DNA of 32,837 bases, from contig CACYBN010000106.1 in the NCBI GenBank assembly GCA_902772675.1, positions 1 to 32,837 of the forward strand, given 5' to 3'. The notes under the pieces are model-generated. The model was not told where the DNA came from, did not search any database, and saw only the letters and a program-made list of their open reading frames with translations. The translations under genes were made by a program, and so were the position numbers. Numbering within the stretch: the stretch's first letter is position 1; the number at the start of each line of letters is the position of its first letter. Shown here one piece after another: positions 5,533 through 14,264 of this stretch. Source of the DNA: an uncultured Erysipelotrichaceae bacterium. Its GTDB lineage: Bacteria > Bacillota_I > Bacilli_A > RF39 > UBA660.

Positions 5533-6165
5533 TTAATCTCTTCTTCCAAATAATTCTAGTAGTCTTAAGATTATGTTGATAATATCTAAGTATAATTGGA
5601 ATGCCCAATATACTGCATATTTTTCTTCATAAGCTTCACCATTCATTCTAGCAATACGCCACATATCTACTGCAATATATAATGTAAATACTAAAAGTGA
5701 GAAGATACTTAATCCTAAGCTAACACCAGAACTTTTTACGAATATGTTTATTATACCTAATATAAGTATTCCAAATAATGCAACTAATAGGTATGTAGAA
5801 AACTTACTTAAGTCTAATTTAGTATTAGCTCCAAAGTATCCTAAAGCACCAAATATTACTGCTGTTGCTAAGAATACAAACATTATTGAAGACATGTTAT
5901 ATACTAAGAATACTGCTCCAAAAGTAACACCAGTTAAAGCTGCATATATTAAATACATAGTCTTAGCTACAGTATCACTCATTTTATTAATTAATAAAGC
6001 AAATGCTATACCAACTACAAGTTCAATAATAGCTATTGCTAAATAGTTATTTGCAAATGTAGCAAATACATCTGTATTAATACTTAATGCATATCCAAAA
6101 CCAAATGTAATTAATAGACCTATTCCTAGCCATTTAAAAACATCTGACATAAATTTGTTTTTCAT
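5533..6165 (-). CDS. Bax inhibitor-1/YccA family membrane protein
   Basis: About 7 TM helices and the family-typical C-terminus ...WAFQLYLDIINIILRLLELFGRRD. AGGAGG RBS (plus-strand CCTCCT, 6170-6175). Confidence 0.85.
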   Translation of the reverse strand: MKNKFMSDVFKWLGIGLLITFGFGYALSINTDVFATFANNYLAIAIIELVVGIAFALLINKMSDTVAKTMYLIYAALTGVTFGAVFLVYNMSSIMFVFLATAVIFGALGYFGANTKLDLSKFSTYLLVALFGILILGIINIFVKSSGVSLGLSIFSLLVFTLYIAVDMWRIARMNGEAYEEKYAVYWAFQLYLDIINIILRLLELFGRRD

Positions 6166-6242
6166 AATTCCTCCTTTTTATAAGATATATGTTATCATAT
6201 GTTAAGAGTTTTTTAAAGATAATACATTTTATTTTACAAAAG

Positions 6243-6251
6243 TGATATAAT
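6243..6251 (+). promoter_or_regulatory. candidate extended -10 promoter element (TGATATAAT)
   Basis: TGnTATAAT match 22 nt upstream of ATG 6274, with RBS AGGGTGA in between. Confidence 0.45.
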
Positions 6252-6273
6252 ATACAAATGAAAGGGTGATATT

Positions 6274-7398
6274 ATGGCAAGAGTCTTACCAATAACTTTA
6301 TTAACAGGTTATTTAGGTAGTGGTAAAACTACATTGATAAATCATATATTAAAAAATCAAGAAGGATATAAAATAGCAGTAATAGTTAATGATATTGGAG
6401 AAGTTAATATAGATGCTGATCTTATTGAAAAAGGTGGAGTAGTTACTGAAAAAGATGATAATTTAGTAGCTCTATCTAATGGATGTATTTGTTGTACTTT
6501 AAAAACTAATTTAATTGAACAAATCGCAGAAATATATGATAGTGGAAAATTTGATTATTTATTAATTGAAGCTTCAGGTATATGTGAACCAATACCAATA
6601 GCTCAAAGTATTATGGCTATTAATCAAATGGTTAATGAACAAGGATTAAAAGATATAGTTAAATTAGATTCAGTTATAAGTGTTACTGATGCTTTAAGAT
6701 TATCTAAAGAATTTAATCATGGAGATAATTTATTAAAAGATAATATTGAAGAAGATGATATTGAAAATTTAATAATTCAACAATTAGAATTTTGTGATAT
6801 TGTAATTTTAAATAAAGTATCAGAAGTAACTAAAGATGAATTAGGTGAAGTAAAAACAGTTATTAAGAAGATTCAACCTCATGCTAAAATAATTGAAACT
6901 GATTATGCAAATGTTAATTTAGATGATATTTTAGATGTTAATTTATTTGATTTTGAAAAAGCTATTTCTTCAGCAGGATGGGTAGAAGAACTTGAAAAAG
7001 ATGAAGAAGAAGAGGAAGAAGGAGAAGCTTTAGAATACGGTATATCTACTTTTGTATATTATGAAAGAAAAGGATTTAATAGAAATAAGTTCCAAGATTT
7101 TATTAAAAACTTTGATAAAGAAATAATAAGATGTAAAGGTATAATGTATTTTGATGATCAAGAAGAAATGAGTTATATGTTTGAACAAGCTGGTACTCAA
7201 AAGACTTTAATGGAAGCTGGAGAATGGTTTGTTATGTTACCTAAACAAGAACAAGATAGACTTCGTAAAATGGAACCTAAACTAGATAAAGATTGGGATC
7301 CAGAATATGGAGATAGAATGGTAAAACTTGTTTTTATTGGTAAAAATATGGATAAAGAATCTATTATAAAAAGATTAGATGAATGTATAGAGAAATAG
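6274..7398 (+). CDS. CobW/COG0523-family GTPase (putative metallochaperone)
   Basis: P-loop GYLGSGKTTLINHIL, the metal-binding CxCC motif (GCICCTLK), a CobW C-terminal domain, and an acidic linker DEEEEEEGE. Confidence 0.85.
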   Translation: MARVLPITLLTGYLGSGKTTLINHILKNQEGYKIAVIVNDIGEVNIDADLIEKGGVVTEKDDNLVALSNGCICCTLKTNLIEQIAEIYDSGKFDYLLIEASGICEPIPIAQSIMAINQMVNEQGLKDIVKLDSVISVTDALRLSKEFNHGDNLLKDNIEEDDIENLIIQQLEFCDIVILNKVSEVTKDELGEVKTVIKKIQPHAKIIETDYANVNLDDILDVNLFDFEKAISSAGWVEELEKDEEEEEEGEALEYGISTFVYYERKGFNRNKFQDFIKNFDKEIIRCKGIMYFDDQEEMSYMFEQAGTQKTLMEAGEWFVMLPKQEQDRLRKMEPKLDKDWDPEYGDRMVKLVFIGKNMDKESIIKRLDECIEK

Positions 7399-7417
7399 TT
7401 TTACTATTTCTTTTTTT
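7391..7417 (+). terminator. intrinsic terminator overlapping the stop codon
   Basis: AGAAATAG-TTTTA-CTATTTCT hairpin plus T-run. The left arm includes stop TAG 7396-7398. Confidence 0.6.
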
Positions 7418-7444
7418 ATGTTAAAATTATTATAGGTGATAGCG

Positions 7445-8473
7445 ATGTTTCTAAGTAATATATGTAGAGAATCTGGTTTTTTAAGTACTATGTTATTTAT
7501 TAAAAGCATAGAAATATTTGTTAGTATATTAATTCCTTTAATATTAATTGTATCTTTAGGATTTGAAATTACTACAATGGTATATGGTGATGTAAAAAAT
7601 TATCATAAACATGTAAGATCTATTATTTTAAAAACTATAGCGGCAGTAGTCATTTTCTTTATACCTACTATTACAAATGTTACTTTATCTTTAGTAAGTC
7701 AAACTAAGTTTAGTGATACAGAATGTTGGACTAATGCCAATACAGAAACTATTGAAAGATATAAAGCAGTTGAAGAAGCTCAAGCTAAATTAGAAGAAGA
7801 GAAAAGAGTAAAAGAAGCTAAGAAAGCAGAAGAGATGAGAATTGCTATTGAAAAGACAAGAGAAGCTGCTAGAAAAGAAAATGAGAAAAAAGCTGAAGAA
7901 GAAAGAAGAAGAAAACAACAAGAAGGTGCTGGTGGAGGTAGTGGCGGACAAAATGATTGTAAAGGATCATATAGTGGTACTAAATATAATCTCTCTCAAT
8001 ATGAAATTACTGGTTTAGCAAGAATGGTTACTTGTGAATATGGAACAGATGCTAATGGTATGAGTGCTGTTGCATCACATATGGCTAATTTATATGAAAT
8101 AAGAAATCATTATGGTAATACTGGTGGTAGATCTCTTTATCAATATATAACTACATGTGGATGGTATGCTTGTGCTAGAAAATTAGGCGATGCTAGTTAT
8201 GATAATTCACAAGCTCAACAAGTAGTAAGATCAGTTTTAGTGGAAGGAAAAAGAACTTTACCTTTATATATTGATGAATTTGACTGGTATCCACATGATA
8301 TAAAAGGAGCTACATGGGAATCATATAAATCTTATACTCCACATGTTACTCAATTAAATAATGTATATAGTTCTTCAGGTAAGTATTTTTGTATAACAAT
8401 ATCAGGTCATGATGGTAATGTCTTCTTTTATACAGCAACTGCAGAAAGATACAAAAATGAGAAGAACTTATAG
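7445..8473 (+). CDS. membrane-anchored protein with charged coiled coil, Gly linker and C-terminal globular domain (possibly SleB/CwlJ-like cell-wall hydrolase fold)
   Basis: N-terminal TM helices, then EEAQAKLEEEKRVKEAKKAEE...EERRRKQQE, then GAGGGSGGQ. The C-terminal domain contains ITGLARMVTCEYGTDANGMSAVASHMANLY, reminiscent of the Hydrolase_2 motif. That resemblance is weak and judged by eye only. Start ATG 7445 is preferred to GTG 7436 (AGGTGA plus 5 nt). Confidence 0.6.
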   Translation: MFLSNICRESGFLSTMLFIKSIEIFVSILIPLILIVSLGFEITTMVYGDVKNYHKHVRSIILKTIAAVVIFFIPTITNVTLSLVSQTKFSDTECWTNANTETIERYKAVEEAQAKLEEEKRVKEAKKAEEMRIAIEKTREAARKENEKKAEEERRRKQQEGAGGGSGGQNDCKGSYSGTKYNLSQYEITGLARMVTCEYGTDANGMSAVASHMANLYEIRNHYGNTGGRSLYQYITTCGWYACARKLGDASYDNSQAQQVVRSVLVEGKRTLPLYIDEFDWYPHDIKGATWESYKSYTPHVTQLNNVYSSSGKYFCITISGHDGNVFFYTATAERYKNEKNL

Positions 8474-8483
8474 AGGTGATAAT

Positions 8484-9107
8484 ATGAAAAAGAAATATTT
8501 ATTATTAATTGTTCCTATATTATTAACTGGATGTACTGCTAAATATACTTTAACTTATGAAGATAATAACTTTTCTGAAGAAGTAATAATATCTGGAGTT
8601 ACTGAAGATGAAGATCCATATTTTGATAGATTTAAATCAGATGATGCAGAAAATAATTTAAAAATATCTGAATCAAGTGATAAATCATATAAATTTAGTG
8701 ATGAAGGAACTACTAAAAAATTATCATATAATTATGGAAATACTTTAGAAGTAACTAAATTATTAAAATATTGCTATGAAGATATAATTATATTAAATTC
8801 TGATGATTATGTTACTATTAATACTTATGGAGAAAATTATTGTAAAAATTATGATGTAGAAATAATATTTAAGACTGATAAATTAGTTCTTGATAATAAT
8901 GCTGATAAAATAGATGGAAATACTTATAAATGGACTGATCTATCTAAAGATTTAATATTACAAGTAAGTAAGAAAGAAACTCCATCAAATTCTAAATCTA
9001 AAAAAGATAATACTGTTTTAAGATTAATAATAACCTTAGTAGTTATCTTAGTTATGATAGTATTGTTTATACAACGTAAAAGCCAAGCTAAGAAAAGAAA
9101 TAATTGA
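8484..9107 (+). CDS. lipoprotein with an additional C-terminal TM anchor, unknown function
   Basis: MKKKYLLLIVPILLTGC is a signal peptide with an LTGC lipobox. The C-terminus LRLIITLVVILVMIVLFIQRKSQAKKRNN is a TM helix plus basic tail. GAGGTGA RBS at 8473-8479. The track start 8409 overlaps the upstream gene. Confidence 0.7.
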   Translation: MKKKYLLLIVPILLTGCTAKYTLTYEDNNFSEEVIISGVTEDEDPYFDRFKSDDAENNLKISESSDKSYKFSDEGTTKKLSYNYGNTLEVTKLLKYCYEDIIILNSDDYVTINTYGENYCKNYDVEIIFKTDKLVLDNNADKIDGNTYKWTDLSKDLILQVSKKETPSNSKSKKDNTVLRLIITLVVILVMIVLFIQRKSQAKKRNN

Positions 9108-9142
9108 CTTTAAGAATTTTTATAGTAAAATTAAAAATTATT

Positions 9143-9170
9143 AAACTGATATTTATTATCAGTTTTTTTT
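9143..9170 (+). terminator. intrinsic terminator
   Basis: AAACTGATA-TTTAT-TATCAGTTT hairpin followed by T8. Confidence 0.65.
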
Positions 9171-9180
9171 AGGAGTATAT

Positions 9181-10020
9181 ATGGAAAGATATAAAGAAAT
9201 AGAAAGAGATATAATTAAGAAATATCGTAAAGAGATTTGGTCTAGATTTGTTAAAGCTGTTCAAGACTATAAACTTATTGAAGAAGGAGATAAGATTATG
9301 GTTTGTATTAGTGGTGGAAAAGATTCATTTCTTTTAGCTAAATGTGTGCAAGAACTACAAAGACATGGAAGATTTAAATTCGATGCAGAATATGTAGTTA
9401 TGGATCCAGGATATACTGAAACGAATAGAAATAATATTATTTCTTTAGGAGAAATATTAAATATACCTATAAAGATATTTGAAAGTGATATTTTCAATAT
9501 TGTATATGATATAGAAAATAGTCCTTGTTATTTATGTGCTAGAATGAGAAGAGGATATTTATATAGTAAAGCTCAAGAGTTAGGATGTAATAAAATAGCT
9601 TTAGGTCATCATTTTGATGATGTTATAGAAACAACTTTATTATCTATGTTTTATGGATCTGAATTAAAAACTATGATGCCTAAATTACATAGTGATAATT
9701 TTGAAGGTTTAGAACTTATTAGACCTCTATATTATGTTAGAGAGGCTGATATTATTGCATGGAAAAATAATAATAACTTAAACTTTTTAAATTGTGCTTG
9801 TAAGTTTACTGAAGAATGTAGTTTAGATAAAGAAGATAAGAGTAAAAGACTAGAAATTAAAAAACTAATAAAAGATTTGAAAAAGAAAAATCCAAATGTA
9901 GATATGAATATATTTACTAGTATGTCTAATGTTAATTTAAACTGTGTTCTTGAATATAAAAAAGGAGATAAGAAATATTCTTTTTTAGATGAATATGATA
10001 ATAAAAAAGAGGATAAATAA
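9181..10020 (+). CDS. TtcA-family PP-loop ATPase (tRNA thiolation-type enzyme)
   Basis: PP-loop CISGGKDS, CYLCARMRRGYLY, ALGHHFDDVIETTLLS and an additional Cys pair (NCACKF). AGGAG RBS at 9171-9175. Confidence 0.85.
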   Translation: MERYKEIERDIIKKYRKEIWSRFVKAVQDYKLIEEGDKIMVCISGGKDSFLLAKCVQELQRHGRFKFDAEYVVMDPGYTETNRNNIISLGEILNIPIKIFESDIFNIVYDIENSPCYLCARMRRGYLYSKAQELGCNKIALGHHFDDVIETTLLSMFYGSELKTMMPKLHSDNFEGLELIRPLYYVREADIIAWKNNNNLNFLNCACKFTEECSLDKEDKSKRLEIKKLIKDLKKKNPNVDMNIFTSMSNVNLNCVLEYKKGDKKYSFLDEYDNKKEDK

Positions 10021-10033
10021 TTATCCTTTTTTT
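10003..10033. terminator. possible bidirectional terminator hairpin containing both convergent stop codons
   Basis: A6-GAGGATAA-ATAA-TTATCC-T7. The AGGATAA/TTATCCT stem is at 10010-10027. Stop TAA 10018-10020 (+) and stop 10021-10023 (-) lie in the loop and stem. Confidence 0.4.
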
Positions 10034-10812
10034 AATTTGTTTAATTTTGCTTTTATTATTTTTATTTTTTCTGAGTATTTTTCTTTTGACTTTTTATTAT
10101 TTTCTTCGATTTTTTCTTCGAATTTTACTAATTTCTTTTCAAGATTTTTTCTTCTTCTTTCTATATCTTTTTCTATTCTATCTAAGTTTGGTTTAAGTTC
10201 AGGGAATGCATTTACTAAACGTCTATATAAGAAGTTCCTATTTCGTAACTCTTCTTTTACATAATTACTTATTTCTGGAGTAGAATCTTTATTTGATTCC
10301 AATGATAATACTTTTACTCCAGAGATTATTTTTAGAGAAATAATATAATCTAATATTAATAGTATGAATAATGCTAAAGCTATAATATTAGTTATATTTA
10401 TTGGTAATATGTTATATATACTTATTACTAATGGATTAATTATATAAATAATCATTAGACCAGCAAAAGCAAAAAATAGAGTATAGTTTAAACAAATTCT
10501 TCCATTTAAATTATATTTATATTTAGAATAATCCCACCATCTTAAATTATATATTTTTTCTAATAGATAACTTGTTATATATTCTAAAGTTGCACATATT
10601 ATCATAGACATTACTGCGGTAGTAGCAGGATTTTTTATAAATGCTGATAATATAATACTAATAGCAATAGCACCAAATCCATATATTGGGCATATAGGTC
10701 CGATTAGGAAGCCTCTATTTACTAATTTTTTTAAATGAATAATAGAACTAATTACTTCAATAAACCATCCTAGAAAAGAATATACAAGAAATAAAAAAAA
10801 CAGTTTTATCAT
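10021..10812 (-). CDS. PF06541-type membrane protein ('putative ABC-transporter type IV') with a Lys/Glu-rich C-terminal coiled-coil tail
   Basis: N-terminal signature YSFLGWFIEV...VNRGFLIGPICPIYGFGA with polytopic topology. The C-terminal ~70 aa are highly charged (KDIERRRKNLEKKLVKFEEKIEENNKKSKEK...). Confidence 0.75.
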   Translation of the reverse strand: MIKLFFLFLVYSFLGWFIEVISSIIHLKKLVNRGFLIGPICPIYGFGAIAISIILSAFIKNPATTAVMSMIICATLEYITSYLLEKIYNLRWWDYSKYKYNLNGRICLNYTLFFAFAGLMIIYIINPLVISIYNILPINITNIIALALFILLILDYIISLKIISGVKVLSLESNKDSTPEISNYVKEELRNRNFLYRRLVNAFPELKPNLDRIEKDIERRRKNLEKKLVKFEEKIEENNKKSKEKYSEKIKIIKAKLNKLKKG

Positions 10813-10828
10813 CTTATCACCTAAAGGA

Positions 10829-10837
10829 ATTATAGCA
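10829..10837 (-). promoter_or_regulatory. candidate extended -10 promoter element (TGCTATAAT on minus strand)
   Basis: The reverse complement of ATTATAGCA is TGCTATAAT, 16 nt upstream of the start at 10812. Confidence 0.4.
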
Positions 10838-10843
10838 AATTTA

Positions 10844-10872
10844 TTGACATGAATAAATAACTTTGTTTTAAT
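10844..10872 (+). promoter_or_regulatory. candidate sigma-A-type promoter TTGACA-17-TTTAAT
   Basis: Perfect -35 (10844-10849), 17-nt spacer and -10 TTTAAT (10867-10872), upstream of GGAGG (10879-10883) and ATG 10891. Confidence 0.5.
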
Positions 10873-10890
10873 TAGAATGGAGGTTTTAAG

Positions 10891-11451
10891 ATGAAGAGAT
10901 TAATAAAAATATTGGCTATATTTACTGTAGTTTTATTATTACCATTAAGTGTTAAAGCAGAAGATGAACATGAGAAATTTAATTTATATATTTTCCATGG
11001 GGAAACTTGTCCTCATTGTCAAGAATTACTTGAGTGGCTTGATAAAAATGAAGAAGAATATGGATATATGTATAATATTGTTAAATATGAAGTATGGAAT
11101 GATTCAAACAATGCTGCTTTAATGAATAGTGTATCTACTGCTTTAGAAGAAGAAGCAGGTGGAGTACCATATATTGTAATTGGTGATAAAACTATGTCTG
11201 GATTTGCAGAAGGATCTACTGATGAAGAATTAGTAAAAATGATGAAAGAAGAATACAACAAAGATGTTAAAGACAGAGTAGATGTAGTTGCTAATACTAT
11301 AAAAGAAACTAATTGGAAACCATCTTCAGGAGATAACAACAATACAAACGAATCTAAAAAAGATTCAAAAACTAGCGATTTATTAATTGGATTAGCACTT
11401 GTAGTTGTTATTGTTGGTGGAGTTGCAATAGCTATAAAAGCAAGACAATAA
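10891..11451 (+). CDS. secreted thioredoxin-fold thiol-disulfide oxidoreductase (CPHC) with C-terminal TM anchor
   Basis: Signal peptide MKRLIKILAIFTVVLLLPLSVKA, active-site-like FHGETCPHCQEL, and C-terminal LLIGLALVVVIVGGVAIAIKARQ. Confidence 0.75.
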   Translation: MKRLIKILAIFTVVLLLPLSVKAEDEHEKFNLYIFHGETCPHCQELLEWLDKNEEEYGYMYNIVKYEVWNDSNNAALMNSVSTALEEEAGGVPYIVIGDKTMSGFAEGSTDEELVKMMKEEYNKDVKDRVDVVANTIKETNWKPSSGDNNNTNESKKDSKTSDLLIGLALVVVIVGGVAIAIKARQ

Positions 11452-11460
11452 TAATTTTTA

Positions 11461-11491
11461 AAAAGATATATTTAAATATATCTTTTTTTTT
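11461..11491 (+). terminator. intrinsic terminator
   Basis: AAAAGATATAT-TTAA-ATATATCTTTT hairpin followed by a T-run. Confidence 0.65.
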
Positions 11492-11517
11492 GGTATTATT
11501 ATAATAGGTGAAATAAT

Positions 11518-13887
11518 ATGGTAGATAGAGATTTAGTTAGATTACTAGTATCAATTCGTTCATCAATAGAGAAACAATTTGAATCTAACCCAGAAAATTT
11601 ATCTTTTTACTCAAGTAATAGAAGATCTATCGAAAGAGCAATTCTATCATATTTTGATGGTGCCATAAAAAGTAGATATAATCATATCTCCAATAATTCT
11701 TCTATAGAAGTAGATTTAGATTCATTTGATGAAGGTAAGATTGTATTTCCACCTGAAGGTGCAAGCGTATTAAGATTAATTAGAGGAAATAAAGGAATAG
11801 ATATTAATATAGAATATGAAGTAGCTAGAGCTTTAGCTAGTACTGGTATTTATGAGGAAACAGTTACTAGTTTCTTAAGAGGTTTAGAAGGTTGTATTAT
11901 TTCTACTCCTGATGTAAGTTTTAACAATCCTGGTATTAGATTTGATTTAGATAACTCACATATTTTTGGATTAGAAAGTCTAACATTATTTCCTAATTTA
12001 TTAAAGAATATATCTATAAAAGAACCTATATCAGAAGTTGATGTAACTAGAATATCTATAATTCAAATGGAAGAATTATTATTTGATTTATTAGAAAGAA
12101 TTCCATATACAAGTAGTAGTCTTGAAGTGGAAAAAGATCTTAATGTAATAGTTACAGATCTATCTATTTCAGCTAGAGATTGTCATATGTTTAATAGATC
12201 AGATAGAGATAAAATGATTAGTGTGATAAGAACTACAATAGCTATTATCAATGATCAAAAAGATGCTAAATATGAAAAAGAATGTCTACTAAGAGAAAAG
12301 ATAAGAGCTAATAAAAGTAATGCTTTAAATAGTACATTATTCCAAAGGACAATATTTAATATTTATGTTAGAAATATTAGTGAATTTGATGAATCTACTG
12401 ATTTAGAAAATACTATTTTAAAGAAATTACCTTTCTTAAGAGATATTATTAGAAATGATCCTCTTGTTATGGAAGCAATTGAAAATAAAATAAAACAAAT
12501 GAGAGCTATTTATAGAATTCATAATAGTAGAAATACTGAAGTCACTGAAGATTCGGTAAGATCTTTCTTAAGTGAATTGATGCAAGAAGATTTTAAAGAA
12601 CCAACTCCTGTATTAATTGATATATGTCACGAATATATAGAAGAAATGATTCTTTTATATAGAGAAGCTAGTAAAGATATTAAACCATTAATTGAAAAAG
12701 CAATATCTCTTAATTTAGTAAGTTTAAATAATGAAAAATTGAATGATATTTTAATTCAATTAACAGGTATTATAAGAATAGATGCTGAAATGAATACTTA
12801 TAGAAAATACTTTAAAGGAGAATTAACTCCAGATATAGTAGAAAGTAGATATATAGAATATGGTAATGTTTCTATAGAAGATTATGATAGAGATAAGTTA
12901 AAAGAGCAAATACTTCAAAGATTGATGTCTAATAATGTAGATATAAGAGATGTATTATATCAAGGTAATTTAAGAGAACATTTGAGTTATGATAGAGATT
13001 TATACTTAGACTTTAATTTAATTAGTAGAATAGAAGCTTCATTTAAAGATGATGCTGATGTAAATATAGATAGCTTTTTAAATGAAACAGGTAATCCTTA
13101 TTATAGAGAAATATATGAACATTTACTAAATTGTGATAATTATACTCCAGTAGATTATTTAACATTAGAAGATTTCTTAGTATATATAAAATCAGATTTA
13201 TTCTCAAATAGAGAGATGGGTTCTGCTAAAGAATATATTTTAGTACAAGATTTTGTTAAAAAGTTTAGATCTAAAATACCTGATGATAAATTATCTGTAT
13301 TTGCAGATTTCTTAGAAACAGATAAACCATTTGAACCTGATGTATGTTTAGATAGTTTAGCTCATTCTAGATTAGAAATAGAAACTGTTACAGAATATGA
13401 GAAAGTTGCTAATGATGAAAAATATTATAATAATCCAGTATTATTTAATTTAGTTTTAAATTCTGAAAGAAGTAGAGAAATTTTTAGAAAACATGATGGT
13501 GGTTTTGTTCCTCTAGTTACTAAAGTAATGATGAAAGCAATCAAAAATAAAAAGAACTTTAAATGTTTAGGAGATTCTTCTTCTACAATATATTATGTTC
13601 AAGACTTAAGTAGTTTCTTAGTTACTAATATTGGTGATAAGAATAATAGAAGTGGTAGATATAATATAAATAATAAATGTGGATATATAATTAAATTAAA
13701 TGATAGTAATAATGTTTATGGTTTAGTTGAAGTTTTTACTGATGGTACTCGTGCTAGTCAAATTTCATCAATTAGACAATGTAATGGATTAAATACAGCT
13801 AGAAAGATTAGACTAACTAGAAAGAAAGATCCTGAAGTTGATGGATATGTTCAAAATGGAGGATTATTATCAAGGAGGTATTCTTAA
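11518..13887 (+). CDS. large soluble orphan protein (789 aa), no recognisable motif
   Basis: Uninterrupted 2.37-kb ORF with GGTGA RBS at 11507-11511. There is no TM segment, no P-loop and no nuclease, protease or other signature visible by eye. Confidence 0.7.
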   Translation: MVDRDLVRLLVSIRSSIEKQFESNPENLSFYSSNRRSIERAILSYFDGAIKSRYNHISNNSSIEVDLDSFDEGKIVFPPEGASVLRLIRGNKGIDINIEYEVARALASTGIYEETVTSFLRGLEGCIISTPDVSFNNPGIRFDLDNSHIFGLESLTLFPNLLKNISIKEPISEVDVTRISIIQMEELLFDLLERIPYTSSSLEVEKDLNVIVTDLSISARDCHMFNRSDRDKMISVIRTTIAIINDQKDAKYEKECLLREKIRANKSNALNSTLFQRTIFNIYVRNISEFDESTDLENTILKKLPFLRDIIRNDPLVMEAIENKIKQMRAIYRIHNSRNTEVTEDSVRSFLSELMQEDFKEPTPVLIDICHEYIEEMILLYREASKDIKPLIEKAISLNLVSLNNEKLNDILIQLTGIIRIDAEMNTYRKYFKGELTPDIVESRYIEYGNVSIEDYDRDKLKEQILQRLMSNNVDIRDVLYQGNLREHLSYDRDLYLDFNLISRIEASFKDDADVNIDSFLNETGNPYYREIYEHLLNCDNYTPVDYLTLEDFLVYIKSDLFSNREMGSAKEYILVQDFVKKFRSKIPDDKLSVFADFLETDKPFEPDVCLDSLAHSRLEIETVTEYEKVANDEKYYNNPVLFNLVLNSERSREIFRKHDGGFVPLVTKVMMKAIKNKKNFKCLGDSSSTIYYVQDLSSFLVTNIGDKNNRSGRYNINNKCGYIIKLNDSNNVYGLVEVFTDGTRASQISSIRQCNGLNTARKIRLTRKKDPEVDGYVQNGGLLSRRYS

Positions 13888-14228
13888 TGAATATAGATAA
13901 AATTATGAACTTACAATATAGAAAAGTTCTTACTGAAAAAGATAGAATATATGATTATATAAAAGATAGTAATAGTATTAAGCAATTATCTAATATTGAA
14001 ATTTTATCTATTTTTATCGTAGATGTAGATGATCTAGATAAAGAAATACTTGATATTAATGAATTAAAACAAGCTATCATAGATGAAAATTTAAGTAAGA
14101 TATTATCTCTTAAAAACAAAAGATTATCTGATGCTATAAATAAGAGAGTAGTTCTTGAATTTGTAGAATTTCTAAATAAAAATAGAGTTGTAAAAATAGG
14201 ATATGAATTACTTGATGCAATTTTATAA
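13887..14228 (+). CDS. small acidic orphan protein (113 aa)
   Basis: TAATG overlap with the 789-aa gene and a strong AGGAGG at 13874-13879. Followed by a terminator. Confidence 0.6.
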   Translation: MNIDKIMNLQYRKVLTEKDRIYDYIKDSNSIKQLSNIEILSIFIVDVDDLDKEILDINELKQAIIDENLSKILSLKNKRLSDAINKRVVLEFVEFLNKNRVVKIGYELLDAIL

Positions 14229-14230
14229 AT

Positions 14231-14259
14231 AAAAAAAACAGTATTTATACTGTTTTTTA
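14231..14259. terminator. bidirectional intrinsic terminator shared by the convergent units
   Basis: A8-CAGTA-TTTA-TACTG-T6 (stem 14238-14243/14248-14253), flanked by an A-run and a T-run, between stops 14228 (+) and 14265 (-). Confidence 0.6.
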
Positions 14260-14264
14260 TTTTT

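What the first reader, a model, noticed from the sequence alone, without database searches (positions are those of the whole stretch)
11518..14228. Translationally coupled orphan pair (789 aa plus 113 aa) convergent on the AAA+ operon
Seen in sequence: a 2.37-kb ORF with no TM segment, no P-loop and no motif I recognise is coupled by TAATG to a small acidic 113-aa ORF that has a strong AGGAGG. The pair is bracketed by terminators (11461-11491 and 14231-14259). Inference: a large orphan followed by a small acidic partner is the layout of many two-gene conflict modules (effector/immunity, sensor/effector). Sharing a bidirectional terminator with the AAA+ operon raises the possibility that all six genes form one functional locus.
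Basis: inference. Interest (0 to 1): 0.6.

Follow-up and report, generated by a model that had tools for sequence, protein, structure and literature searches.

The report
Orphan two-gene operon beside AAA+ module
Two real, selected but completely uncharacterised genes (789 aa and 113 aa) form a small operon of their own, found in one gut Bacilli species and its sister lineage; they are a recent insertion next to, not part of, the neighbouring AAA+ ATPase module, and their function remains unknown.

Summary
A 789-aa ORF (11518-13887) and a 113-aa ORF (13887-14228) overlap in TAATG. The small ORF has an AGGAGG 8 nt upstream, and AT-rich hairpins bracket the pair. Both genes are under purifying selection (dN/dS 0.29 and 0.13) and are intact in at least eight assemblies.

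- The AAA+ cassette recurs in about 70 of 80 loci from many phyla, and in 9 of 10 congeneric species. None of these carries the pair.
- Within the genus, the slot between the thioredoxin-like gene and the AAA+ gene is empty or holds unrelated genes.
- The pair is therefore a lineage-specific insert, not part of a six-gene locus.

The 789-aa protein has no homologue outside its own species and a sister lineage among about 15 billion proteins. No family model or fold search gave a match.

The 113-aa protein has one distant relative (36% identity, first 16 residues identical). On that unrelated contig it again directly follows an orphan of about 790 aa (796 aa) and has no AAA+ cassette nearby. 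This supports a self-contained two-gene module.

Function is unresolved. A fast-evolving conflict module is my leading guess, at about 35%.

The small protein is not notably acidic (pI 5.2).

The parts
11460..11487 (+). AT-rich hairpin plus T-run after the thioredoxin-like gene. It is the likely terminator that isolates the pair from upstream transcription.
   Evidence: -8.6 kcal/mol, z -3.07; inverted repeat I1.
11491..11517 (+). Promoter-like extended -10 (TGGTATTATTATAAT) abutting an AGGTGA RBS, 7 nt before the ATG. This is a short-leader expression signal for the 789-aa gene.
   Evidence: An 18-nt core is identical in L118 upstream of P0017. The motif type recurs in front of other genes of this genome (8 sites, this one included, at 2 or fewer mismatches).
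11518..13887 (+). 789-aa orphan protein (P0001). It is soluble, pI 5.15 and predicted mostly alpha-helical. The C-terminal part (about residues 651-789) is basic (net +14) and includes the only predicted beta-strands (720-754).
   Evidence: dN/dS is 0.29 overall, about 0.1-0.2 in residues 420-630 and about 0.8 in residues 691-781. No homologue outside its species and a sister lineage.
13873..13878 (+). AGGAGG ribosome-binding site for the 113-aa gene, embedded in the last codons of the 789-aa gene.
13887..14228 (+). 113-aa helical partner (P0002). Its start overlaps the upstream stop (TAATG). The N-terminal 16 residues (MNIDKIMNLQYRKVLT) are identical in the distant relative P0016 despite 7 synonymous differences in those codons.
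   Evidence: dN/dS 0.13.
14233..14258 (.). Bidirectional hairpin (A-run, stem, T-run) between the converging stops of the 113-aa gene and the AAA+ gene.
   Evidence: -9.4 and -8.9 kcal/mol on the two strands, z -3.5 and -3.7; inverted repeat I2.

Best explanation
The two ORFs form a self-contained, independently transcribed two-gene operon. It encodes a large soluble, mainly helical orphan protein with a fast-evolving basic C-terminal region, and a small helical partner made by coupled translation.

The operon is a lineage-specific insertion into a variable intergenic slot at the convergent junction between a thioredoxin-like gene and the genus-conserved AAA+ cassette. It is not a component of that cassette.

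Inferred, not shown:
- The small protein binds or controls the large one, or links it to a conserved cellular partner, through its invariant N-terminal 16-residue helix.
- The large protein, and especially its C-terminal domain, diverges quickly because it contacts something variable.
- The most probable biological role is a rare accessory conflict module (phage defence, or toxin-like effector plus regulator). I put that at about 35%. The structural and evolutionary part of the statement I put at about 80%.
For: Real genes:
- dN/dS is 0.29 and 0.13 against the sister lineage, and 0.28 within the species.
- Eight intact full-length copies are known, with the same synteny in independent samples.

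Own expression signals and terminators.

Insert in a variable slot:
- 9 of 10 congeners carry the AAA+ cassette, and none carries the pair.
- The slot is empty in G007 and G004. It holds a 52-aa ORF (G002), a 116-aa membrane protein (G003), a 522-aa secreted protein (G006), or a P-type ATPase (G001, G005, G009).

Cassette is autonomous: about 70 of 80 loci from Firmicutes, Bacteroidota, Actinomycetota, Proteobacteria and others carry it without the pair.

Pair architecture recurs:
- P0016 (36% identity, BLASTP E 1e-20, first 16 residues identical) follows the 796-aa orphan P0017 after an 8-nt gap on L118/L119, away from any AAA+ gene.
- L118's SDR gene is closest to other genera of the same family, at 56-59% identity.

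Fast evolution of the large protein:
- Its dN is about 8-10 times that of flanking and cassette genes.
- The C-terminal region has omega of about 0.8.

Rarity:
- 0 of 400 family genomes and 0 credible matches in 400 class genomes.
- No match in phage or plasmid records, IMG/VR or JGI metagenomes.
- No match among 1.8 billion representative proteins.
Against: - No biochemical function is indicated. There are no hits in Pfam, PHROGs, NCBIfam, PADLOC or PDB.
- The AlphaFold models are too poor to use (pLDDT 39.8 and 56.1), and Foldseek returned only noise.
- There are no mobility genes, flanking repeats or compositional anomaly that would show how the pair arrived.
- The large proteins of the two known pairs show no detectable similarity. 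'One conserved module' therefore rests on the small protein, on gene order, and on similar length (789 versus 796 aa).
- Only two independent contexts are known.
Confidence: 0.6

Rival explanations
1. All six genes (the pair plus the four-gene AAA+ cassette) form one functional locus, for example with the 789-aa protein as a substrate, adaptor or effector of the AAA+ unfoldase.
For: The genes are adjacent, convergent and share a hairpin. The adjacency is kept in the sister lineage and in other samples of the species. This genus lacks the roughly 160-aa fifth component (cluster 'c3') that accompanies the cassette in 48 of the 80 loci. A weak collinear resemblance exists between c3 and the C-terminus of P0001 (hhalign P 0.013).
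Against: The cassette occurs without the pair in about 70 loci and in 9 of 10 congeners. The related pair on L118 has no AAA+ neighbour. The synteny in L002, L138 and L139 is shared ancestry, not independent co-occurrence. The c3 resemblance fails its controls: P0001 ranks 16th of 933 proteins of its own genome by hhalign, and HMMER gives only 1.8 bits.
Confidence: 0.07
2. The pair is an accessory module with no conflict role, for example a cytoplasmic scaffold or regulatory protein with its chaperone or adaptor. It evolves fast simply because constraint is low in a small, drifting genome.
For: No toxin or defence signature was found. The large protein is predicted helical and solenoid-like, although only from low-confidence models. 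The locus contains no defence-island neighbours, only housekeeping genes. The pair is stably fixed in all sampled assemblies of the species.
Against: The distribution is extremely patchy: 0 of 400 family genomes. Evolution is about eight-fold faster than in the neighbours, and omega reaches about 0.8 in the C-terminus. Both fit conflict genes better than cellular scaffolds.
Confidence: 0.3
3. The small gene is a portable unit that has become attached to two unrelated large genes (P0001 and P0017). There would then be no homologous 'large partner' family, and the pairing would be opportunistic or coincidental.
For: No similarity between P0001 and P0017 shows up with BLASTP (E 0.22), hhalign (probability 0.3%), Smith-Waterman (z 2.2) or ranking against real decoys (13th of 130).
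Against: The two large proteins are nearly the same length (789 and 796 aa) and share orientation and tight spacing (-1 and +8 nt). They have similar pI, no TM segment and the same Cys count. An 18-nt identical core lies in the promoter/RBS region. The measured rate ratio (dN 0.107 versus 0.035) predicts that, at the divergence seen in the small protein (44% identity over aligned columns), the large one would have fallen to about 8% identity, which is undetectable. Loss of signal is therefore what orthology predicts.
Confidence: 0.25
4. The pair is a decaying remnant of a phage, plasmid or other mobile element and has no current function.
For: The genes are orphans, lie in a variable slot and have a patchy distribution.
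Against: Both frames are intact in eight assemblies, and omega is 0.13-0.29 over both short and longer divergence. Start signals and coupling are preserved. There is no match to PHROGs, phage or plasmid records, or IMG/VR. No integrase or repeats are present.
Confidence: 0.08

Closest known systems
Generic two-gene conflict operons of low-GC Firmicutes (toxin-antitoxin pairs; two-gene abortive-infection systems such as AbiE, AbiG, AbiL and AbiT)
   Same: A large protein plus a small partner in one tightly coupled operon. The genes are AT-rich, narrowly distributed and evolve faster than their neighbours.
   Different: There is no sequence or model match to any of them (PADLOC, Pfam, NCBIfam, PHROGs). 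No recognisable effector domain is present, and toxicity and neutralisation are untested. The comparison of layout is from my own knowledge of those systems, not from a tool result.
The adjacent membrane-anchored AAA+ four-gene module (576-aa two-TM protein, 61-aa, 143-aa, 521-aa AAA+ ATPase).
   Same: Physical neighbour, convergent, sharing one hairpin terminator.
   Different: The module recurs in many phyla and in 9 of 10 congeners without the pair. Its components evolve about eight times more slowly. HMMs of its components do not match P0001, P0002, P0016 or P0017.
Phage receptor-binding protein or tail fibre followed by a small assembly chaperone (variable large gene plus conserved small gene)
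   Same: The pattern 'large partner diverged beyond recognition, small downstream partner still recognisable'.
   Different: There are no PHROG hits for either protein and no phage genes around. P0001 is predicted mostly helical rather than beta-rich, although that model is low-confidence. In tail fibres the N-terminus is usually the conserved part, which is my own knowledge.

Membership tests
Six-gene locus with the AAA+ cassette | Homologues of the pair co-occur with the cassette in independent genomes | tested here: not met
   None of about 70 cassette loci across phyla carries the pair, and none of 9 congeners with the cassette does. The related pair on L118 lacks an AAA+ neighbour.
Six-gene locus with the AAA+ cassette | Sequence relationship of P0001 or P0002 to a cassette component (including the c3 protein missing in this genus) | tested here: not met
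   In hmmsearch with the c2, c3, c5, c6 and c41 models, all E-values were above 0.2. For c3 against P0001, hhalign gave P 0.013, but P0001 ranks only 16th of 933 own-genome proteins.
Known anti-phage defence systems (PADLOC-DB 2.0) | Match of at least one protein to a system model | tested here: not met
   No family matched P0001 or P0002 at E up to 0.1.
Toxin-antitoxin or effector-immunity pair | Two adjacent co-transcribed genes with tight coupling | tested here: met
   The TAATG overlap, the internal AGGAGG and the flanking hairpins. The pairing recurs on L118.
Toxin-antitoxin or effector-immunity pair | Recognisable toxic or enzymatic effector domain | tested here: not met
   No Pfam, NCBIfam or PDB hits, and no P-loop or HExxH. 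The structure models are unusable.
Toxin-antitoxin or effector-immunity pair | One product is toxic and the partner neutralises it | not testable with these tools
   This needs expression of each gene alone and together in a laboratory host.
Phage tail fibre plus chaperone | Match to phage structural families, or a phage gene context | tested here: not met
   No significant PHROGs hit. No phage-record or IMG/VR match. The neighbours are housekeeping genes.
LXG/T7SS polymorphic toxin plus immunity | N-terminal LXG or WXG-type domain detectable by Pfam | tested here: not met
   No Pfam family matched at E up to 10, apart from one spurious 14-bit hit.

The most novel reading that the evidence does not exclude
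The pair founds a previously unseen two-component conflict system. A conserved small adaptor, with an invariant 16-residue N-terminal peptide, partners a hyper-divergent sensor/effector of about 790 aa whose basic C-terminal domain is under diversifying pressure. Such systems would be invisible to homology-based defence catalogues, because the large protein loses all sequence signal between genera.
Probability: 0.2. Interest if true: 0.6.

Novelty: categorically new. Interest (0 to 1): 0.3.

Why it matters
If the pair is a working conflict module, it would show how fast-evolving two-gene systems in tiny-genome gut Bacilli escape every homology-based catalogue. In that case only the small partner and the gene order would betray relatedness.

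As things stand, the practical value is mostly negative and clarifying:
- The neighbouring, widely distributed AAA+ module should be studied as a four- or five-gene unit without these two genes.
- The junction next to it is a variable slot that takes up unrelated cargo in different species.

'Categorically new' is meant narrowly. Neither protein belongs to any described family. Nothing here shows a new kind of mechanism, and orphan pairs are common in poorly sampled lineages, so the interest score is modest.

Tried and rejected
1. Roughly 780-aa ORFs occupy the same slot in three congeners (G001, G005, G009). They looked like diverged orthologues but are P-type ATPases (DKTGT motif), unrelated to P0001. 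The similar size is a coincidence.

2. Homology between P0001 and P0017 was not detected. BLASTP gave E 0.22 and hhalign probability 0.3%. Smith-Waterman gave z 2.2 (9 of 300 shuffles scored as well). P0001 ranked 13th of 130 real decoys.

3. The C-terminus of P0001 resembles the cassette's missing 'c3' protein in three collinear motifs (RSxE...DGG, GxII, Y..[IV]EV[YF]TD..RA). The hhalign P-value was 0.013, but P0001 ranks only 16th of 933 in its own genome and scores 1.8 bits with HMMER. I rejected this as unsupported.

4. The conserved promoter/RBS stretch shared with L118 is suggestive. However, '-10 box abutting AGGTGA' is a common short-leader type in this genome, so it is only weak evidence of common descent.

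5. AlphaFold2 on shallow alignments gave pLDDT 39.8 (P0001) and 56.1 (P0002). Foldseek against PDB returned only noise.

6. These searches found nothing: phage and plasmid tblastn, IMG/VR, JGI metagenomes, 400 class genomes, 400 family genomes, Rfam, and repeat searches.

7. The word-based search with P0017 returned nothing, not even P0017 itself. The candidate list was saturated by low-complexity words, so that negative result is weak.

Full report
**1. Observation**

The window (contig C106 of a 1.12-Mb, roughly 25% GC MAG) carries a 789-aa ORF at 11518-13887 and a 113-aa ORF at 13887-14228, both on the + strand.
- The stop TAA of the first ORF shares its last base with the ATG of the second.
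- AGGAGG lies at 13873-13878, 8 nt upstream of that ATG.
- The large gene is preceded by TGGTATTATTATAAT-AGGTGA-N7-ATG.
- A hairpin at 11460-11487 folds at -8.6 kcal/mol (z -3.1).
- A hairpin at 14233-14258 folds at -9.4 and -8.9 kcal/mol on the two strands (z -3.5 and -3.7). It has an A-run before and a T-run after.
- The generic terminator scan reports neither hairpin, only because it requires at least 3 G-C pairs.
- P0001 has no TM segment, P-loop, HExxH or CxxC.
- The 113-aa product has pI 5.2 and net charge -2. That is unremarkable for this proteome, where the median pI of small proteins is 6.7 and 35% fall below 5.2. 'Acidic' is therefore overstated.

**2. The genes are real**

Comparison with a sister lineage (L002; housekeeping proteins 97-99% identical, dS about 0.3) gives these values:

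| Gene(s) | dN/dS |
|---|---|
| 789-aa gene | 0.29 |
| 113-aa gene | 0.13 |
| AAA+ cassette, FTHFS, GatA/B | 0.02-0.06 |

- Within the species the 789-aa gene again gives 0.28.
- Seven full-length copies at 98-99% identity and one at 81% come from different assemblies. Synteny is identical where the contigs are long enough.
- Constraint is uneven along P0001. Omega is about 0.1-0.2 in residues 420-630 and about 0.8 in residues 691-781. The C-terminal part (about residues 651-789) is basic (net +14) and includes the only predicted beta-strands (720-754).

**3. Neither protein belongs to a known family**

- No family in Pfam, PHROGs, PADLOC or NCBIfam matches either protein, even at permissive thresholds.
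- There is no PDB sequence match.
- A word-indexed search of 5.8 billion clusters found only same-species and sister copies of P0001. An exhaustive phmmer pass over 1.84 billion representatives gave the same result.
- tblastn against phage and plasmid records found nothing. Scans of IMG/VR and JGI metagenomes also found nothing.
- AlphaFold2 on the shallow alignments gave pLDDT 39.8 (P0001, largely helical) and 56.1 (P0002, six helices).
- Foldseek against PDB returned only non-significant solenoid or designed-helix noise.

**4. Relation to the AAA+ cassette**

The - strand operon encodes a 576-aa TM protein, a 61-aa protein, a 143-aa protein and a 521-aa AAA+ ATPase.
- The ATPase matches phrog_8638 over its full length and is IetA-like only in its ATPase core.
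- The ATPase has hundreds of relatives. In the 80 best loci, from Firmicutes, Bacteroidota, Actinomycetota, Proteobacteria and other phyla, about 70 keep the 576-aa protein. Most also keep the 143-aa and 61-aa proteins, and often a fifth protein of about 160 aa (cluster c3, 48 copies).
- No homologue of P0001 or P0002 lies in any of those loci.
- Within the genus, 9 of 10 species representatives have the cassette at 71-77% ATPase identity. It lies next to fhs in the two congener stretches that reach that far (G003, G004). None of the 9 has P0001.

The cassette is therefore vertically inherited and autonomous.

**5. The pair sits in a variable slot**

In congeners, the interval between the thioredoxin-like gene and the AAA+ stop holds different things:

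| Genome | Content of the slot |
|---|---|
| G007 | Empty (42 bp) |
| G004 | Empty (57 bp between ORF ends) |
| G002 | 52-aa ORF |
| G003 | 116-aa membrane protein |
| G006 | 522-aa secreted, anchored protein |
| G001, G005, G009 | P-type ATPase of about 780 aa (DKTGT motif) |

The ATPases match P0001 in size only. The 789+113 pair is a lineage-specific insertion at a convergent terminator junction. No integrase, flanking repeats, RNA family or compositional shift marks how it arrived.

**6. One distant relative supports a two-gene module**

- P0002 has a single remote homologue, P0016 (138 aa, 36% identity, pairwise E 1e-20). Its first 16 residues, MNIDKIMNLQYRKVLT, are identical.
- Those 16 codons differ at 7 synonymous positions and at no non-synonymous position. 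The peptide itself is therefore under strong selection.
- P0016 lies on a 6.1-kb bioreactor-metagenome contig (L118/L119). There it follows a 796-aa orphan (P0017) after an 8-nt gap.
- The other genes on that contig are two SDR genes, a divergent 384-aa orphan and a convergent ORF of at least 173 aa that is not an AAA+ gene.
- The SDR is closest (56-59% identity) to genomes of the same family but of other genera.
- Searches with the P0002/P0016 profile found nothing credible in 400 genomes of the class or in 400 genomes of the family, the latter spanning 214 genera.

**7. Whether the two large proteins are homologous**

- No method detects similarity. BLASTP gives E 0.22 and hhalign a probability of 0.3%. 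Smith-Waterman gives z 2.2, and P0001 ranks 13th of 130 against real decoys.
- They do share length (789 and 796 aa), position, spacing, pI, absence of TM segments and Cys count.
- They also share an 18-nt identical core in the promoter/RBS region. That motif type is common in this genome, so it carries little weight.
- From, the large gene accumulates amino-acid changes about three times faster than the small one (dN 0.107 versus 0.035). The small protein is at 44% identity over aligned columns, a Poisson distance of about 0.8. The large one would then be at a distance of about 2.5, or roughly 8% identity, which is undetectable.
- Orthology that has diverged beyond recognition is therefore quantitatively plausible. 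This is inference. Replacement by an unrelated gene cannot be excluded, and I give it about 25%.

**8. A link that I considered and rejected**

- The cassette's frequent fifth protein (c3) is absent from this genus and has a conserved KCYLGxPYEVH...YxFIEVYxD C-terminus.
- It shows three collinear short resemblances to residues 645-750 of P0001.
- hhalign gives P 0.013. However, 15 unrelated proteins of the same genome score higher, HMMER gives only 1.8 bits, and the Cys is not conserved in the sister copy of P0001.
- I treat the resemblance as chance.

**9. Interpretation**

- Shown: this is a real, selected, independently signalled two-gene operon. It is restricted to one species and its sister lineage, inserted in a variable slot, and not part of the AAA+ module. 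Its small partner and gene order recur once elsewhere.
- Inferred: the small protein acts on or with the large one through its invariant N-terminal helix. The rapid divergence of the large protein, strongest in the basic C-terminal domain, reflects interaction with a variable target.
- A conflict or defence role is my leading guess, at about 35%. A non-conflict accessory pair is nearly as likely, at about 30%.

**10. Verdict**

The six-gene reading is not supported, and the two-gene-module reading is supported by a single independent occurrence. Both proteins are family-less orphans. Interest is modest (0.3), because orphan pairs in sparsely sampled tiny-genome Bacilli are common and no mechanism is indicated.

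Noticed in passing
window 11452-11517 and 14229-14264; loci L110-L117: The convergent junction between the thioredoxin-like gene and the AAA+ gene is a cargo slot within the genus. It is empty in two species. In the others it holds a 52-aa ORF, a 116-aa membrane protein, a 522-aa secreted, anchored protein, or a P-type ATPase of about 780 aa.
   Followed up: yes
L009:11721-12203, L027:11576-12058 and 46 other loci: A protein of about 160 aa (cluster c3) accompanies the AAA+ cassette in 48 copies among the 80 loci, either upstream of the membrane protein or downstream of the ATPase. It has no Pfam match. Its conserved KCYLGxPYEVHTLD...YxFIEVYxDCCRA C-terminus has an invariant-looking Cys/His pair that might mark a papain-like peptidase. 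It is absent from the window's genus.
   Followed up: partly
window 11491-11520; G000 C21:2400, C33:9119, C82:6655(-), C127:6260, C130:2544(-), C150:9155: Very short leaders appear to be common in this genome. A TATAAT-like -10 box is followed within 4-6 nt by AGGTGA and then, 5-7 nt later, by ATG. There are 8 sites (the one at 11494 included) within 2 mismatches of the 18-mer TATTATTATAATAGGTGA; seven of the eight have ATG a few nucleotides after the match.
   Followed up: partly
L006 and L007 (uncultured Bacilli MAGs), about 5900-11500: In two more distant Bacilli MAGs the AAA+ cassette also lies divergent from fhs. There it has an extra multi-TM protein of 179-187 aa (cluster c41) between fhs and the 576-aa homologue. 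The fhs-cassette linkage is therefore older than the genus.
   Followed up: no
L072:5930-13203: One Clostridiales locus carries three paralogues of the 576-aa membrane protein around a single AAA+ gene.
   Followed up: no
L118:1511-2665 (-): A 384-aa orphan (P0019) lies divergent from the related pair on L118. It has no homologue in the window's genome and only a non-significant T4_baseplate hit (E 0.084).
   Followed up: partly
window 11518-13887: P0001 contains no tryptophan in 789 residues. The proteome frequency of 0.52% predicts about 4.
   Followed up: no
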